In this document: positions 27,763-40,464 of the stretch, one piece after another | Numbering within the stretch: position 1 is the first letter of the stretch | Layout: each line of letters starts with the position of its first letter | Assembly (NCBI GenBank): GCA_019057795.1 | Contig: JAHLWS010000065.1 | Location: 32,001-96,000, forward strand | Length of the DNA: 64,000 nt | Reading direction: 5' to 3' | Source of the DNA: Promethearchaeota archaeon | GTDB taxonomy: Archaea > Asgardarchaeota > Lokiarchaeia > Sigyniarchaeales > SOKP01 | Notes under the pieces: generated by a model | The model's input: only the letters and a program-made list of their open reading frames with translations | Databases searched by the model: none | What the model was told of the DNA's origin: nothing | Program-made: the position numbers and the translations under genes

Positions 27763-28689
27763 ATAGTATTAAAGGTTTTATTCAACGACATTTTGGCGAC
27801 TTGAAATCAATCAGGCTATTTAATGGGATTTTCGATAAAAGAATTGACATATCAGGGAAAATATTTGCTCTTTTTGACAGAACAGCAGTTTGCCGGGCCA
27901 TGGTTCAGTTTTAAATTGATAGGCAAAAAAGTGGGCACTATTCCTGTTGTGTTGAAAAATATTGAACCAACGCCGATCTATAAAATGGTAAACAGTCGGA
28001 CGGGAACTGTGATCGACCGTATAACGCTAGATTTTGACATAAAAGAATACTTAAAAAAATTAATAAGAGAAAAGAAAATTCAACCGATTAGATTTAAAAA
28101 AGAAAATTCTTCGATTCGGTTATATATTGACGTCTTTAATCGTCCAAAAGTTCCTTATGTCAACACATTTTTCACATTAAAGAATATTTCCGATTTCAGC
28201 TTAATTGACTTCTCAATGTACTTTGTGTTTGACTTTGATATCAACGGATTAGAAGGTTTCGATAACGACTTATCTGGTTATGACGAAGAAAACGACATAC
28301 TTTACCAATACGATCATACAGGTTTATATGGTGGCTTCTCTCCTATATCAAAATCGACGAATTACGAAACTTGTTTAACGAAAGACTTTGAAATTAATAA
28401 CGAAAGATTGAATCTGTCAAATACTTTATATGGAGAGGCTGGAGAAATCTTATCGGCTTTGCAAATTGAGTTCAAAACTTTAAAGCCAGACCAATCGTTT
28501 CAGACTGCTTTAATTATTTCTGGAGCTTTAAGCAAAGAAGAATTAATTGAAAACATTAACGAAGGCAAAACCAATGCGATGAAATTTTTGTCGCAAGTAA
28601 ACAGATCAGTAAAATCAGAGCAAAGAAACAGACAAGAAGAAGCTTTCATTAAAATCAATCTCCAAAAATCAGTTGATTGTAATGAATAA
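27763..28689 (+). CDS. Uncharacterised beta-rich protein; candidate selenoprotein (in-frame TGA at 27802-27804)
   Basis: ORF 27823..28689 extends upstream in frame through a single TGA to a GGAGG (27748) / ATA (27763) start; SECIS-like hairpin in the 3' UTR. The coding call for 27823..28689 is firm; the extension is inferred. Confidence 0.55.
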
Positions 28690-33241: not shown

Positions 33242-34342
33242 TTAGTCCTCGGTCTGCAAAAAATATCCTAAAATACGCAGCTTATTATTGAAGCGATTTA
33301 ATTCTGTAATAATTCCTTTAAGTCCCTCGTCGTCGTGAACTACTGTTTTATCAAAAAGAATTTTAACGATTCCACTCTTACCGGGAGTTAATTCTTGACC
33401 TTCAATAAATTTGAGAGGAGATAATTTTAAGCCTACTAAACCATAATACTGAACTCCGTCGCCGGGTTTTATTATTCCCCCTTTGGGCGCATAGTATTGA
33501 TTAATAAAAACCTTAGCTTTTATTTCAAGTTCTTGTTTAAAAACTCCAGGACTCACTAAAAGGTTATCTCGACTAACATCATGAGGTGAAATATTCCCTT
33601 TTAAAGCAAGACCGACTCTATCGCCCTCATAGGCAACCTTAAAGGTTCTATCGTGTTTTTGTATGCTTCGAATTATTACTTTTTTTACTGCTGCTTCATA
33701 ACCTACTATTTCGAGCATTTGACCGCTTTGAACCTTTCCTTGCTTTACAATTCCAAGTATCACAGTTCCAATTCCCTTGACTGGAAATACATGATCAATT
33801 AGTATCTTAGTATTTTCTTCGGAATTTGGCTCTTTTTCCAGAAGTTCAATGCCTAGATCTATAATTTTCTTCTTTAACTTTTCGTAATCCTCTTTGATTT
33901 TTAACTCGAATATTTCTGTATTGTTCAAACTGGTGCTCTTTAAAATTGTTTCGAGCTTCTTTCTTATCTCAGGCAGTTTCCACTCCGTTTTCGAATTTAT
34001 CCCAGCTATCACTATTAAAGCTTTAGTTTTAAAGAGTTGGTAAAATAAATCCATCCCAACTAATATTTCTCCAATAGAGGCATTTAACCCCGCATTTAAG
34101 TCTATAACAAGAATATGAATATTAGATATAGTTAGAGTTTGTAAAAGCGGTTTAATTTTTTCTGGATAGTCGATTGGAGTTAACCCACAAAACACTTGAT
34201 TTAGGCTTACATCCAAGCGATTGTAAAATAGAATATCTGACTTTGTCCCAGGGGAACCTAACGCTTGTCCTATTAGATTATTAATATCAAAATTATCCCC
34301 TAAGATTCCCACAATAAAATTTCTTTCAATTGCTTCACTCAT
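33242..34342 (-). CDS. SelB/EF-Tu-like protein with degenerate G-domain and EF-Tu domain II
   Basis: LIDHVFPVKGIGTVILG, IRSIQKHD and GDRVGLALKG motifs; no P-loop GKT. Confidence 0.75.
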   Translation of the reverse strand: MSEAIERNFIVGILGDNFDINNLIGQALGSPGTKSDILFYNRLDVSLNQVFCGLTPIDYPEKIKPLLQTLTISNIHILVIDLNAGLNASIGEILVGMDLFYQLFKTKALIVIAGINSKTEWKLPEIRKKLETILKSTSLNNTEIFELKIKEDYEKLKKKIIDLGIELLEKEPNSEENTKILIDHVFPVKGIGTVILGIVKQGKVQSGQMLEIVGYEAAVKKVIIRSIQKHDRTFKVAYEGDRVGLALKGNISPHDVSRDNLLVSPGVFKQELEIKAKVFINQYYAPKGGIIKPGDGVQYYGLVGLKLSPLKFIEGQELTPGKSGIVKILFDKTVVHDDEGLKGIITELNRFNNKLRILGYFLQTED

Positions 34343-34481: not shown

Positions 34482-36002
34482 ATGCCTCGAAATAGTTTAG
34501 TTAATCAAGTTATTTTAATTATTATCGATGATGTTCGAGCATCCCATCTTTTTGATTTAATTAAGCAAAAAAAGCTACCTAATATAGCTCAGCTTGCTGA
34601 GAGTGGAATCTCGTGCCAAAATTGTATTACTTCTTTTCCGAGTATTACATTTCCTTGTTATAGTAATATAGTTATTGGATCATATTCAGGATACTTCTCT
34701 ATAGAAGGAAGTGGTATTCCGATGTATCATTGGGTTGGAAGAACCGACCCACCATCGGAAGGGAAAAGATTTCCTATTATTCGAAATTGTGGGAAGGGAA
34801 GTCATATTAGAAAGTTTAATAGTGATTTCGGACCAAATTGTCAAACTATTTTTGAACAGGCAGGAGAAGGAAATTTTTTAAGCTCACTAAATCTTCTTAA
34901 TCGAGGATCTGTAATGATTCCCCCAATCGAATACACCACTCAATCGATATTAAAGGGAGTTGAAGAAATATATAAAGATCCTAAAAAAATCTTTTCAAAC
35001 AAAGAAGTGCCAAAAGTAACAGTTGCTTATATACCTAAAACAGACGACCTTATGCATAAAAAAGGGTTCTCTCATCCAAAATACATTAATGAAATTATTA
35101 AATGCGATGAATCTATTGGCTTAATAATTAAAATGTTAAAGGAAAAGGGGTATTTTGACTCGACTGCTATTGGAATTATTTCGGATCATGGAAATTATAA
35201 AACAGAAAAATTGTATGACATTGAACCTTATTTTAAAGAAAAAGGTCTAATGCAGTACTTACCTAGAAAAGGAATTGGTGATTTCGATGCTAGTTTTGGT
35301 TCAGTTGGATTTTTTAACTTTCCAGGGAAAGATTGGCATCATCATCCAACTACTAAACAATTAAAAGAATTTATTCCAAGCGGTTCAGGAAAGTCGAAAT
35401 TGAATTTATTTGAGACTTTATGGAAGATTCCAGGCGTGAAATTGATGTACTACCGGGACGACAATAACACGCCTGACAAAGGGATAATATATCTGGAACA
35501 GCGGAACGAGAAATCAGGAAAAATTTCAAAAAACATTATTGAATATGAGGGTCATGGAAAAAATCAACGAACGAAATATATCATTGATGAAAAAGATTTA
35601 TACAAATACGAAGACTACGAAGAATCCGCTGTGCTTTTAGATAATAAGGCTCATAATATTGATGAGTGGTTAGAAGGAACGAATAAAATAGATTTTCCAA
35701 TGATAGTAGACCAAATTCCTCGATATTTTAAAAATCCCCGTTCTTGCGATATTATGATATCCACGATTGGCGAATATGGATTTGGTTATGAACATGGGAT
35801 GTCAATGCCTCATTCTCCATACTCTCACGATATAGGACTTAAAAAGTCGATGACTGTGCCATTCATCATTGGAGGGTCTCTAAACATTCCTTCTACGGAG
35901 CTATCGTATTGTAAAACGACGGATATGGTTCCAACGCTCTTAGATTTATTAGGAGAAAAACCACATTTCAGCGTTGTTGGAAAATCTGTATTTAAGTATT
36001 AA
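34482..36002 (+). CDS. Alkaline phosphatase / nucleotide pyrophosphatase superfamily protein
   Basis: IIIDD, FPSITFP, DDLMH, ISDHG and SH motifs. Confidence 0.85.
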   Translation: MPRNSLVNQVILIIIDDVRASHLFDLIKQKKLPNIAQLAESGISCQNCITSFPSITFPCYSNIVIGSYSGYFSIEGSGIPMYHWVGRTDPPSEGKRFPIIRNCGKGSHIRKFNSDFGPNCQTIFEQAGEGNFLSSLNLLNRGSVMIPPIEYTTQSILKGVEEIYKDPKKIFSNKEVPKVTVAYIPKTDDLMHKKGFSHPKYINEIIKCDESIGLIIKMLKEKGYFDSTAIGIISDHGNYKTEKLYDIEPYFKEKGLMQYLPRKGIGDFDASFGSVGFFNFPGKDWHHHPTTKQLKEFIPSGSGKSKLNLFETLWKIPGVKLMYYRDDNNTPDKGIIYLEQRNEKSGKISKNIIEYEGHGKNQRTKYIIDEKDLYKYEDYEESAVLLDNKAHNIDEWLEGTNKIDFPMIVDQIPRYFKNPRSCDIMISTIGEYGFGYEHGMSMPHSPYSHDIGLKKSMTVPFIIGGSLNIPSTELSYCKTTDMVPTLLDLLGEKPHFSVVGKSVFKY

Positions 36003-36151: not shown

Positions 36152-36205
36152 GTGAAAGCTAATAACATAATTATAGTCCCTGAAACTCATTGGGATCGCG
36201 AATAG
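36152..36205 (+). pseudogene. Orphan copy of alpha-mannosidase exon 1 (VKANNIIIVPETHWDRE*)
   Basis: 15/17 aa and 39/51 nt identical to 37642..37692; ends at the codon where the micro-intron sits. Confidence 0.85.
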
Positions 36206-36207
36206 AA

Positions 36208-37365
36208 CTATTTTTGTTGAGATCGAGAGGTTTTTATATCCCATTCCTCACAGAGTTTATAAAAGGAACCAATGGATACTTTAAATTTTTTAATTAAATG
36301 GGAAATTGGATACTTATCAATTAAACATTGTAGATTCTCCTTATTTACTACTGCTTCTTTTAGGCATGGAATCACATTCATATCTCTCTCATTAAATGTT
36401 CTCCTCTTTCTGGGCATACTGTTTTTATAGTTCCTCATCATTTCATTAAATAATAATGCCCCTAATGATAATCTCCAATGTGATTTAGTGGCAATAATAT
36501 TATCAAAATTACTTATTTTACCTTTCTCATATTGAATTTTAACTTCATATTGAATATTTAATTTCAACCTTATTTGTTCGAGAAATTCTTTAGAGCCACT
36601 TGTTATTCTAGTACTGTTAGCATTGCCATCCCCATCATAATAACCAAGAACCCAGGCCAAAAATAACTTATGATTAATAGGAGTTTTTTTATTAAAAATT
36701 ATAGGAATCGATTTTCTTAAAGACTTTGAACTTGAGAACCCAATATTCATTAAATCTTCAACCATTGGTTTACATCTAAAACGCAAATAAGCCAATTGAT
36801 ATGTTCTCCATTCTTCTTTATTTTTCTTTGTTCTATCTCGTTCTTTAATAAGTATAGGATCAAGATTTAGGGCTTTACAAAATCTTATTATTTGATCTTT
36901 ATCCTTAATTGAAAGCTCCATAGATATCAAATACCAAGGTTTTCCCCGATAATCCATTACTACAGAACCGTCTGCGTATAAAAAACCTAACCAATAAGCT
37001 TTTTCAAGTGTATCTACTTTCCTAAAAAAATCAGCTCTAAGATCATCGCTATATTGCTGATTTGAGTATTCTTTCAAGTTTTTATTTAACTCTTGATATC
37101 TTTTAATAAATAATAAACAATTAATTACTTTATTTCCTAAGCTTTTCTTTAGGTTATTTTGGAATTTTTCTAAATTTTGCTCTGAAAATTTGTAATTTGG
37201 ATTATATCCACGAACTTTCGAGTTGGTGATTCTTTGTTTTAGATCTGATAAATAAGTCGATCCATGTCCTAAAAGTATACTAGCTTTGGGTAAAGGTCCT
37301 AACTCATTTACCAAATCGTCTATTAAATTCAAAGTGCTATAAACACTTTCTTTTTTAACAGTCAT
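36208..37365 (-). CDS. Double-motif LAGLIDADG homing endonuclease
   Basis: AYWLGFLYADGSV and AWVLGYYDGDGNA motifs; likely start MTVKK at 37365 (ORF open to 37467). Confidence 0.85.
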   Translation of the reverse strand: MTVKKESVYSTLNLIDDLVNELGPLPKASILLGHGSTYLSDLKQRITNSKVRGYNPNYKFSEQNLEKFQNNLKKSLGNKVINCLLFIKRYQELNKNLKEYSNQQYSDDLRADFFRKVDTLEKAYWLGFLYADGSVVMDYRGKPWYLISMELSIKDKDQIIRFCKALNLDPILIKERDRTKKNKEEWRTYQLAYLRFRCKPMVEDLMNIGFSSSKSLRKSIPIIFNKKTPINHKLFLAWVLGYYDGDGNANSTRITSGSKEFLEQIRLKLNIQYEVKIQYEKGKISNFDNIIATKSHWRLSLGALLFNEMMRNYKNSMPRKRRTFNERDMNVIPCLKEAVVNKENLQCLIDKYPISHLIKKFKVSIGSFYKLCEEWDIKTSRSQQK

Positions 37366-37638
37366 AATTTGAATATGGAATTGATCTTTATAAACTGAAT
37401 AACATCCATAATTTTTTCTAATATCGTTTCTAATATTCATTCCAATAAGAATTAGGGCTCCAATCACGCATTCAAGGTCTTTTATACATAGAAATTAGAA
37501 AACTTATTTAGTTGATATTCACCCTCTTGGGCAGCTTAAATATTGTATTATTCCTCTCTTTTCAGCAAGTAAGCAATATAAAACATCAAAAATTATGAGT
37601 ATTAAACTATGAAAAAGAAAAAAAGATGATAAAAGACT

Positions 37639-40464
37639 ATGGTGAGAGCAAATCATATAATAATTGTTCCTGAGACCCACTGGGACCGTGAAACTTTGTA
37701 TAATTAATATACAAAGCACGATTGGTATCTCCCGTTTCAAGAGTATAGAGCAAAACTAGTTCTCATGATGGATAAGCTCTTGGATATCCTAAGAAGCGAT
37801 CCAGATTATAAAAATTTCACTCTTGATGGACAAACTATTCCGATAGAGGACTATCTTGAAGTCCGACCTGAATTTGAAGATGAGATTAAAAAGTATGTAA
37901 AAGAAAGGCGGCTTTCGATTGGGCCTATGTATATTTTACCAGATGAATTTTTGGTAAGCGGCGAATCTTTGATTAGGAACTTAATAATTGGACACCAAAT
38001 TGCTAAGAGATTTGGAAGGGTTATGAAAGCAGGTTACATCCCTGATCCTTTTGGCCACATTGCTCAATTACCTCAAATACTTCAAGGATTTGAAATCCCT
38101 TCGATTTTATTCTGGCGAGGGTTTGGTAACGAATTCGTAGAAAATAACCTAAACATTGAATTTATTTGGAATTCCCCCGGAGATTCTAATTCTATTTTGG
38201 GAATATTTTTGAAGCAGAGCTACGGTTCGGTTGCTGATCTTAATTTATCAAAAAGAAGCGGAAAATATAAACTGGCGCTTCATAAGATAAAAAGGGTTGT
38301 TTCTGAGTTCGAAAAATTCACAGCTACATCCTATGTTCTTTTGAATAGCGGTTCAGATCATCACGAAGCTCGATCGGAGATTCCTGAAATAGTTAGACAA
38401 TGGAACGAAATGTATCCCGAGAAACTTTTAGAACAAAACGATTTTGAATATTATGTCGATAAAGTATTACATAGTAATCCACAGTTAAAACAGTTTAAAG
38501 GCGAATTAAGAGGTGGAAAGTACGCACATCTACTTTCAGGGGTATTTTCAGCTCGTATGTGGATCAAGCAGAGAAACACGGCAATCGAATATCTGTACGA
38601 AAAATATACGGAACCCTTATCAACAATTATATGGTCTCTCGATAAATATAAGGAATTTAATTACCCTCAAGCTTATATGCTCACAGGTTTGAAATGGCTT
38701 ATCAAAAACCACCCTCACGATAGCATATGTGGCTGTTCTATTGATCAGGTTCACAAAGAAATGGAGACTAGGTTTGATTGGGCGGAGCAAATCGGTAATG
38801 AAGTGTTTAAAAATTCAATATTGTATCTATACAATCTGATTACAGTTGAGGAAGACGAGAAAAAAATTCCGATCGTAGTATTTAATCCTCTTCCTTGGAA
38901 ACGTAAAGATATCGCAAATTTCCACATAATATCCAACACTAAAAAAGCTGGTTTTAAAAATCCAGACGCTTTCAAAATTCTCGACTCCGAAGGAAACGAG
39001 ATCGCATACCAATACGTTCAAATCAGCGAAGAGCCAAGATATAGATTAATTGGATCGGTTAGTTATTATTGCTCGTTTTTAGCCGAGGTTCCTGCTTGTG
39101 GATATAAGTGTTATTATATCGTACCAGGAGAAAAACCCGAAGAACCTGTAGTAAAGAGTAAAAAATTGAAGTTAGGTATAAATAGCTTAGAAAATCAGTT
39201 CTACAAAATCAACATAAGTTTTAAGGGACAAATCGACGTTTTAGATAAGGAAAGTAAAGTTTTGTACGAAAATATTTGTTATTTTGAGGATATAGGAGAT
39301 TGGGGGGATGAATATGACTTTTCGGGGCCATATGAAAATCAAACTGATTTAAAATTCACCTCAGAAGATCTGAATATTCTAGAAATAGCACCGTTTTTAG
39401 ACGGGGTCACCCAAAAAACGATTAGAATAAGAGCAAATCTCAATTTACCTACTTCTTTAACCGAGGATAGATATAGTAGAGACGAATATCTGATTTCAAA
39501 CTTAATCGATATCTATATAACGGTATATAAGGACATTAAACGAGTTGATTTTAAGATTGAATTAGAAAACAATAGTAAAGACCACCGAATACGAGTACTT
39601 TTTCCTTCAAAAATTAAATCTAAAAATGTAGATTCCGATGGTCATTTTTATGTCATTTCGCGAGATGTTGAGATGCCAAAATCTGAGAAATGGGCTCAAC
39701 AACCCGTACCTACTAACCATCAGAAAGATTTTGTCTCTGTTAACGATACATCAAGAACTTTTTCGGTTATAAACAAAGGATTACCCGAATATGAGGCAGT
39801 TATAAATAAAGATGGAACGATTTCGCTAGCTATTACCTTACTGCGGTGTATTGAATGGCTTTCAAGACACGATTTTACCTCGAGAAGAAGTAACGCAGGT
39901 CCGGACCTAAATACTCCCGAAGCTCAATGTCTTGGAAAGCATACTTTCGAACTTTCTCTCGTTATCGAAGGAAACAAACCTAATTGGTTAGATTCGAACG
40001 CTCACATAAAAGGTAAAGAATTTAACAATCCTTTTGAGGTTGTGGTTCCCTCGATAGTTAGAACCTCAATAAGAGCTTCGAATAAAGTCGTTTTAGCCCC
40101 TTTTGGACTAATTTCATATTTTAAACCATCAACTCGTCAACCTTTAAAACCTTATTTACCTACCAAATTAAGCTTCCTTGAAATCGATAACACAAAAATA
40201 ATGCTTAGTGCTTTGAAAAAATCGGAAAAGGGAGAATCTTTAATCGTTAGAGTTTATAACATCTCTTCAACCACTCAAAAAGCAAGGTTAACGTTACACG
40301 AGAAAACTTCCATCAAAAGTGCGGATATTGTAAACTTTTTGGAAGAAAAGCCAGAAAACGAAATTAAGGCGAAAATTGTTTCAAGTAAAGGGAATCATCT
40401 TGATCTAACTCTGGAACCGCACATAATAGTAACGATAAAACTTGAGCTTGATAATAATTATTAA
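37639..40464 (+). CDS. GH38 alpha-mannosidase (MngB-like); join(37639..37692,37723..40464)
   Basis: The spliced N-terminus MVRANHIIIVPETHWDRE|WYLPFQEYRAKL restores the HWDREWY Zn motif; LDGQT, PDPFGH and HDSICGCS motifs also present. Confidence 0.9.
37693..37722 (+). other. Putative 30-nt BHB mRNA intron
   Basis: CGUG-AA^A-CUUUGUAUA-AUUAA-UAUACAAAG-CACG-AU^U: perfect 9-bp stem, 4-bp central helix, two 3-nt bulges; contains an in-frame TAA. Confidence 0.85.

What the first reader, a model, noticed from the sequence alone, without database searches (positions are those of the whole stretch)
37687..37725. tRNA-type BHB micro-intron in a protein-coding gene (GH38 alpha-mannosidase)
Seen: the invariant GH38 motif HWDREWY is split by a 30-nt insert (37693..37722) carrying an in-frame TAA. 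The RNA folds as CGUG/CACG (4-bp central helix), a 3-nt bulge AAA, a perfect 9-bp intron stem CUUUGUAUA/UAUACAAAG with a 5-nt loop, and a second bulge AUU. Established: archaeal splicing endonuclease (EndA) cuts after the second nucleotide of each bulge. Applied here, this joins GAA|UGG and restores E-W. BHB introns are common in archaeal tRNA and rRNA, but in mRNA they are known to me mainly from crenarchaeal cbf5. Inference: this Asgard lineage splices mRNAs with its tRNA machinery, and gene callers miss it by starting the ORF at 37765 without the metal-binding motif.
Basis: partly seen in the sequence, partly recalled or inferred. Interest (0 to 1): 0.95.

Follow-up and report, generated by a model that had tools for sequence, protein, structure and literature searches.

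The report
Mobile tRNA-type intron in Asgard mRNA
A sugar-cleaving enzyme gene of an Asgard (Loki-type) archaeon is broken by a 30-base insert shaped like a tRNA intron, so its message very probably has to be cut and re-joined; at least 14 more genes in the genome are broken by similar inserts, and this one arrived with a DNA-cutting enzyme gene, which suggests how such introns spread.

Summary
Confirmed. The 30-nt insert (37693-37722) splits HWDRE|WY, carries a TAA and folds as a bulge-helix-bulge (BHB). The BHB cut sites match the only deletion that restores the protein. The same insert occurs in 15 GTDB species, always 30 nt with a stop, with compensatory changes at 6 of 9 stem pairs; 21 orthologs lack it exactly. 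Carriers stay under purifying selection (dN/dS about 0.12).
Two additions. (1) Comparison with a relative finds 14 such inserts in this genome (15 with one found by motif) and 5 in the relative, including its EF-1alpha. In 19 of 20 the best BHB register restores the protein (2.8 expected). (2) The intron is the end of a 1,520-bp element inserted at the junction: antisense LAGLIDADG gene, replacement exon 1, intron. The native 5' end is stranded upstream. The nuclease lies beside 6 of 15 intron alleles and 0 of 19 intronless ones.
In the papers I could search, only cbf5 is confirmed within an archaeal coding region. This scan has already noted both the introns and such cassettes on other Asgard DNA.

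The parts
37693..37722 (+). 30-nt BHB mini-intron with an in-frame TAA at 37705-37707
37687..37690 (+). 5' (exon) strand of the 4-bp central helix; these codons are fixed in all carriers
37691..37693 (+). 5' bulge; predicted cut after 37692
   Evidence: cut rule in PMC2738675
37694..37716 (+). 9-bp intron stem with 5-nt loop; 6 of 9 pairs show compensatory changes
37717..37720 (+). 3' (intron) strand of the central helix
37721..37723 (+). 3' bulge; predicted cut after 37722
37639..37692 (+). working (replacement) exon 1, 18 codons, carrying the His and Asp that are zinc ligands in GH38; foreign to the host lineage
37723..40464 (+). exon 2 of the GH38 alpha-mannosidase (MngB-like), 913 codons; spliced product 931 aa; usually called from ATG 37765
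36208..37467 (-). free-standing double-motif LAGLIDADG endonuclease gene (true start probably 30-100 nt inside this ORF)
36152..36202 (+). stranded native 5' end of the mannosidase gene (17 codons), ending exactly at the intron insertion point and followed by TAG
36203..37722 (.). inferred mobile element, 1,520 bp: endonuclease gene + spacer/promoter + replacement exon 1 + intron
34482..36002 (+). upstream phosphodiesterase/NPP-family gene; directly precedes the mannosidase in most relatives without the cassette (context)

Best explanation
The insert is a true tRNA-type intron in an mRNA. The pre-mRNA folds into a relaxed BHB. The two-subunit EndA cuts after the second base of each bulge, and RtcB joins the exons, giving a 931-aa GH38 with its zinc-binding His and Asp. 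The same machinery would serve at least 15 genes in this genome. The intron spreads by homing: the neighbouring LAGLIDADG nuclease cuts intronless alleles at or near the E|W junction. Repair from a donor then copies in nuclease, new promoter, new exon 1 and intron, leaving the recipient's own 5' end stranded. The intron interrupts the target site and so would protect the new allele. The nuclease later decays while the intron stays. SHOWN: anatomy, conservation, covariation, selection on the gene, presence of the enzymes, insertion point, mosaic ancestry. INFERRED: cleavage by EndA, ligation by RtcB, nuclease activity and target. Splicing about 0.93; homing about 0.75.
For: Unique junction equal to the BHB cut. 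15 species, all 30 nt with a stop. 94% of cells paired, 6 pairs with two-sided changes, 0/500 shuffles, slid controls 21-50%. The last three exon-1 codons are identical in 14/14 carriers but take 14 variants in 21 non-carriers. dN/dS 0.10-0.13 with or without the intron; exon 1 of carriers shows 3.4 silent vs 0.7 replacement differences. Census: best BHB register restores the protein in 19/20, 2.8 expected. The interrupted EF-1alpha is the only over-cut-off copy in 4 genomes. EndA alpha is closest to the A. pernix enzyme, with loop and catalytic His aligned; beta subunit and RtcB are present. Homing: the stranded 5' end matches intronless sisters 50/51, the working exon 1 only 38-39/51. Nuclease beside 6/15 intron alleles and 0/19 intronless. 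5/5 nuclease orthologs found by protein alone sit in the same cassette. G004 is a mosaic that switches at the junction. At least 7 changes are needed on the tree. The fold matches I-AniI, I-SceI and I-DmoI.
Against: The outer helix is one pair and the BHB is not the minimum-energy fold. One census insert (second PFK insert) has no BHB at its restoring register. Most introns (12 of 15 in this genome by the 3-kb test) have no nuclease of this family nearby, and several family members have no intron nearby. Related sequences are not independent, so the shuffle counts are not probabilities.
Confidence: 0.9

Rival explanations
1. Translational bypassing: the ribosome hops over the hairpin and no RNA is cut.
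For: A stop codon and a hairpin follow the junction, as in known hops (own knowledge). 3 of 20 inserts have matching take-off and landing codons.
Against: For this gene the codons are GAA and GAT, which do not match; 17 of 20 inserts lack a match. Most BHB junctions fall inside codons.
Confidence: 0.03
2. Pseudogene or disabled N-terminus: the insert is debris of a mobile element, and only exon 2 is translated (from ATG 37765) or nothing is.
For: A mobile cassette did land here, and exon 2 has its own ATG.
Against: dN/dS is the same as in intact genes, and exon 1 is under protein-level selection upstream of the stop. Exon 2 alone lacks two zinc ligands (His13 and Asp15 of SpGH38). No intact paralog at 45% identity or more for any of 15 genes. 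EF-1alpha is affected in relatives.
Confidence: 0.03
3. The insert is removed from the DNA (precise excision or phase variation) in part of the population, and intronless copies are the expressed ones.
For: Close relatives at 93% DNA identity lack it.
Against: Those relatives differ at silent sites beside the junction, so they are other alleles. Strand-specific G-U pairs are tolerated, and the asymmetric BHB register predicts the ends.
Confidence: 0.02
4. Splicing is real, but the intron is ancient and was lost many times; the nuclease is a later hitch-hiker rather than its vehicle.
For: The intron occurs in deep branches, and 9 of 15 carriers have no nuclease. Three species share an identical intron across about 75% exon identity.
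Against: The stranded 5' end has intronless-type codons of the host lineage and ends at the exact junction in this genome, in L038 and L039, and in most further assemblies. The nuclease was never found beside an intronless allele.
Confidence: 0.2

Closest known systems
cbf5 pre-mRNA intron of Desulfurococcales/Sulfolobales (Watanabe 2002; Yokobori 2009, PMC2738675)
   Same: Small BHB-type intron in a catalytically critical codon region of a protein gene; relaxed motif; hetero-oligomeric EndA; patchy presence among relatives.
   Different: cbf5 is one gene, mostly inherited vertically and shown to be spliced. Here there are at least 15 unrelated genes per genome, in Asgard archaea, with signs of lateral gain; splicing is not yet shown.
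HVO_1309 5' UTR intron of Haloferax volcanii (PMC7714728)
   Same: EndA acts on an mRNA at a BHB.
   Different: It lies in the UTR, so no reading frame depends on it.
Non-canonical tRNA introns of Asgard archaea (PMC11291895; bioRxiv 10.64898/2026.10.13.758758)
   Same: Same lineage group, same motif and enzyme, repeated gains.
   Different: tRNA hosts. The preprint does not mention mRNA (0 occurrences) and leaves the route of arrival open.
Collaborative/trans homing by free-standing endonucleases in phages (PMC2988022, PMC10448857)
   Same: A nuclease gene outside an ORF-less intron targets the intron insertion site, and both are inherited together.
   Different: Those are phage group I introns. 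Here it is a chromosomal, protein-spliced 30-nt intron, and the element inserts at the cut site while supplying its own promoter and first exon.
LAGLIDADG-encoding BHB introns of archaeal rRNA (I-DmoI type; structures)
   Same: LAGLIDADG fold paired with a BHB intron at a conserved site.
   Different: There the ORF lies inside the intron (own knowledge). Here it is outside, antisense and upstream of a duplicated exon.

Membership tests
Archaeal BHB (EndA-spliced) intron | 4-bp central helix with two 3-nt bulges on opposite strands | tested here: met
   100% of central-helix cells paired in 15 species
Archaeal BHB (EndA-spliced) intron | outer helices on both sides | tested here: inconclusive
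   intron stem strong; exon helix only one invariant C-G pair, i.e. a relaxed motif
Archaeal BHB (EndA-spliced) intron | cuts after the second bulge base restore the host product | tested here: met
   only 1 of 18 deletions restores the motif, and it is the BHB one; intronless orthologs agree
Archaeal BHB (EndA-spliced) intron | EndA and RtcB encoded; broad-specificity two-subunit type | tested here: met
Archaeal BHB (EndA-spliced) intron | excised from RNA in vivo, or cut by EndA in vitro | not testable with these tools
GH38 alpha-mannosidase | four GH38 domains and the N-terminal zinc-binding His/Asp | tested here: met
   Pfam; alignment to solved GH38; ligands from PMC2815779; His/Asp present only in exon 1
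LAGLIDADG homing endonuclease (double motif) | two LAGLIDADG helices with acidic catalytic residues, and the fold | tested here: met
   G152/D157 and G266/D269/G270 invariant in 83 sequences; pLDDT 89.6 model matches I-AniI, I-SceI, I-DmoI, prob 1.00
LAGLIDADG homing endonuclease (double motif) | cuts the element-free allele and drives gene conversion | not testable with these tools
   only indirect: co-occurrence, insertion point, mosaic alleles
Mobile ORF-containing archaeal BHB intron (I-DmoI type) | endonuclease ORF inside the intron | tested here: not met
   the ORF is outside and antisense
Translational bypass element | matching take-off and landing codons | tested here: not met

The most novel reading that the evidence does not exclude
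Lokiarchaeia routinely splice tens of mRNAs, including essential ones, with the tRNA endonuclease and ligase. These ORF-less mini-introns are seeded into conserved codons by free-standing LAGLIDADG cassettes that bring a replacement gene start, then decay and leave the intron behind. This would be a genome-wide, non-spliceosomal intron system with a visible route of gain in the closest prokaryotic relatives of eukaryotes.
Probability: 0.7. Interest if true: 0.93.

Novelty: new variant of a known kind. Interest (0 to 1): 0.88.

Why it matters
In the literature I could search, splicing inside an archaeal coding region is confirmed only for cbf5. Routine mRNA splicing in Asgard archaea would show that interrupted protein genes and RNA-level repair exist at genome scale next to the root of eukaryotes, by a mechanism independent of the spliceosome. 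It would also mean that core genes are truncated or missed in current Asgard annotations. The cassette gives a concrete, testable answer to how tiny BHB introns arrive, a question that a 2026 preprint on Asgard tRNA introns leaves open.

Tried and rejected
Two exact-pattern scans of metagenome contigs for this strain's junction found nothing. The 899-aa product is not on record as such. The 930-aa near-relative P0001 (L199) is a different, intronless allele (93% DNA identity, other silent sites), not a spliced transcript of this strain. A motif-only genome scan was too noisy, with 168,951 loose matches, so I used protein comparison instead. No stranded exon copy was found at the other 19 introns. 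The whole 1,520-bp element does not form a proper BHB with the stranded exon (3 of 4 helix pairs, no stem; by inspection). Stop-codon readthrough was rejected: the stops differ in type and position, some alleles have two, and many other inserts are not multiples of three. The sigma-70 promoter scan was uninformative. A sequence search of the PDB with the nuclease gave no hit; only the fold search did.

Full report
1. Observation. The window is part of a 4.95-Mb genome with 31% GC. Its relatives' records are mostly named Promethearchaeota, including the SOKP01 assembly, so it is a Loki-type Asgard archaeon. From ATG 37639 the frame reads 18 codons ending HWDRE, then 30 extra bases with a TAA, then WYLPF and 913 open codons with all four GH38 domains. 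The RNA can form the described BHB. The 9-bp stem is near certain. The central helix is about half populated, and the exon helix is one C-G pair. Of 18 placements of a 30-nt deletion only 37693-37722 gives DRE-WY, and that is where the published cut rule (between the second and third bulge residues, PMC2738675) places the cuts. Exon 1 carries the His and Asp that align with the HWDREW motif of solved GH38 enzymes. His13 and Asp15 bind the catalytic zinc in SpGH38 (PMC2815779).

2. Conservation. The insert stands at the same base in 15 GTDB species, always 30 nt and always with an in-frame stop, whose type and position vary. It is cleanly absent from 21 orthologs. On the named structure 94% of cells pair and six stem pairs show two-sided changes; no shuffle of 500 reached this, and slid controls gave 21-50%. 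Relatedness inflates such counts, but the swaps are of several kinds (A-U to G-C, U-A to A-U, C-G to U-A). The three exon codons that build the motif are identical in all 14 carriers examined, while 21 non-carriers use 14 variants. dN/dS on exon 2 is 0.10-0.13 for carrier and non-carrier pairs alike, and exon 1 varies mainly at silent sites. The gene is therefore alive and exon 1 is translated.

3. It is one of many. I compared proteins from about 2.7 Mb of relative G017 with this genome, without using the motif. This gave 14 frame-breaking inserts of 29-36 nt in conserved genes. By my reading of their motifs these include Elf1, CobO, CdhD, acetyl-CoA synthetase, FwdB, a thiolase, a ferredoxin and phosphofructokinase (twice). 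A fifteenth, in a V4R-like protein, came from a motif scan and was confirmed against about 28 intronless orthologs. The reverse comparison gave five in G017, including the P-loop of EF-1alpha. That intron is in 6 of 42 genomes of the genus, and the interrupted gene is the only full EF-1alpha match in four of the five genomes checked (in the fifth that locus was not returned). For 19 of 20 inserts the lowest-energy BHB among 21 registers also restores the protein, against 2.8 expected; without the motif-found case it is 18 of 19. Planted inserts were recovered at 69%, and about 551,000 aligned residues were examined against about 1.32 million ORF residues in the genome, so the true count is probably 20-45 (my extrapolation). 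None of the 15 genes has an intact paralog at 45% identity or more, and only 3 of 20 inserts are compatible with ribosomal hopping.

4. Machinery. The genome encodes two EndA subunits and RtcB. The catalytic subunit is closest to the Aeropyrum pernix alpha subunit (E 4e-34). It shares the inserted loop and the His that is replaced by Ala in one of the two solved sequences. According to PMC5829648, only the two-subunit and epsilon types cut non-canonical introns.

5. How the intron got there. A lead from earlier notes proved correct. Upstream lies an antisense gene (36208-37467) with two intact LAGLIDADG motifs, whose model matches I-AniI, I-SceI and I-DmoI. Beyond it, 36152-36202 is a second copy of exon 1 that ends at the very base where the intron begins. 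This copy matches the intronless sister alleles at 50 of 51 bases, whereas the working exon 1 matches them at 38-39. The host gene was therefore intronless, and a 1,520-bp element was inserted at the E|W junction, supplying a new start. The nuclease flanks 6 of 15 intron alleles and none of 19 intronless ones. Five further orthologs retrieved by protein similarity alone all sit in the same cassette with a 30-nt intron. Stages of decay are visible: a damaged stranded exon, loss of it together with the nuclease C-terminus, and complete loss. G004 has exon 1 and intron like G001 but exon 2 like intronless G008, switching at the junction. The tree needs at least 7 gains or losses. Related nucleases, some decayed, lie within about 1.3 kb of the ferredoxin intron here, of the EF-1alpha intron in three genomes, and of a 28-nt intron in a uL16 gene. 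Against generality: most introns have no such neighbour, and several nucleases have no intron nearby.

6. Mechanism and confidence. Most likely EndA cuts both bulges and RtcB ligates the exons (about 0.93). The nuclease cuts intronless alleles, and repair copies in the cassette, with the stranded exon and exon 2 as homology arms; the intron would protect the new allele by splitting the target (about 0.75). Rivals are listed separately.

7. Comparison and novelty. It works like the cbf5 intron and meets every BHB criterion I could test, apart from a weak outer helix. PMC2738675 states that no other archaeal pre-mRNA splicing was confirmed, though some was predicted. PMC7714728 adds one 5' UTR case. 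Ten literature searches found no report of coding-region introns in Asgard archaea; the library lacks most subscription journals. The 2026 preprint on Asgard tRNA introns does not mention mRNA and found no general route of arrival. The cassette resembles collaborative homing in phages but is not an ORF-containing intron. Within this scan the phenomenon is not new: many notes on other Asgard genomes describe it, some citing RNA-derived contigs and one a kae1 cassette. I did not check those and do not count them as support. Verdict: real, a new variant of a known kind, interest 0.88.

Noticed in passing
G000 C49:81126-81154 (-), L068/L108: 29-nt BHB insert in a V4R-like gene, present only in this genome among about 29 orthologs examined. 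It ends with a repeat of the last 6 exon bases around a palindromic 4-mer, so a short duplication could itself create the central helix.
   Followed up: partly
G000 C70, about 27778-27809 (+): Second insert in phosphofructokinase: 30 nt with stops and a hairpin, but no BHB at the protein-restoring register; the one exception among 20.
   Followed up: partly
G017 C11:167313-167345 (-); also G018, G029, G033, G036, G065: BHB intron in the GHIDHGKS P-loop of EF-1alpha, with length varying by 1-2 nt between species; a related LAGLIDADG gene lies just upstream in G017 (decayed), G029 and G065.
   Followed up: partly
L233:653-680 (-): 28-nt intron with a perfect central helix and 8-bp stem near the start of a uL16 ribosomal protein gene, about 800 nt from a LAGLIDADG gene of a sister subfamily.
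   Followed up: partly
G017 C17, C19, C11: Further BHB inserts in an FwdA-like gene, a DnaG-like gene and two others (names from motif reading only).
   Followed up: no
L004, L035, L037: Identical 30-nt intron in three species whose exons differ by about 25%, while a close sister differs at 6 bases: intron-only transfer or strong constraint.
   Followed up: partly
G000 C54:9212-11374, C78:109700-110938, C78:128062-129726, C70:125182-126657: Long free-standing LAGLIDADG-domain genes with no adjacent mRNA intron found; the C70 one lies next to a predicted intron-containing tRNA.
   Followed up: partly
whole genome: ARAGORN finds only 29 tRNA genes, 16 with introns, which suggests that further interrupted tRNAs are missed.
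   Followed up: no
window 33242-34342 (-): Conserved 366-aa protein that hits only EF-Tu domain 2, with no G-domain hit; intact in relatives, function not examined.
   Followed up: partly
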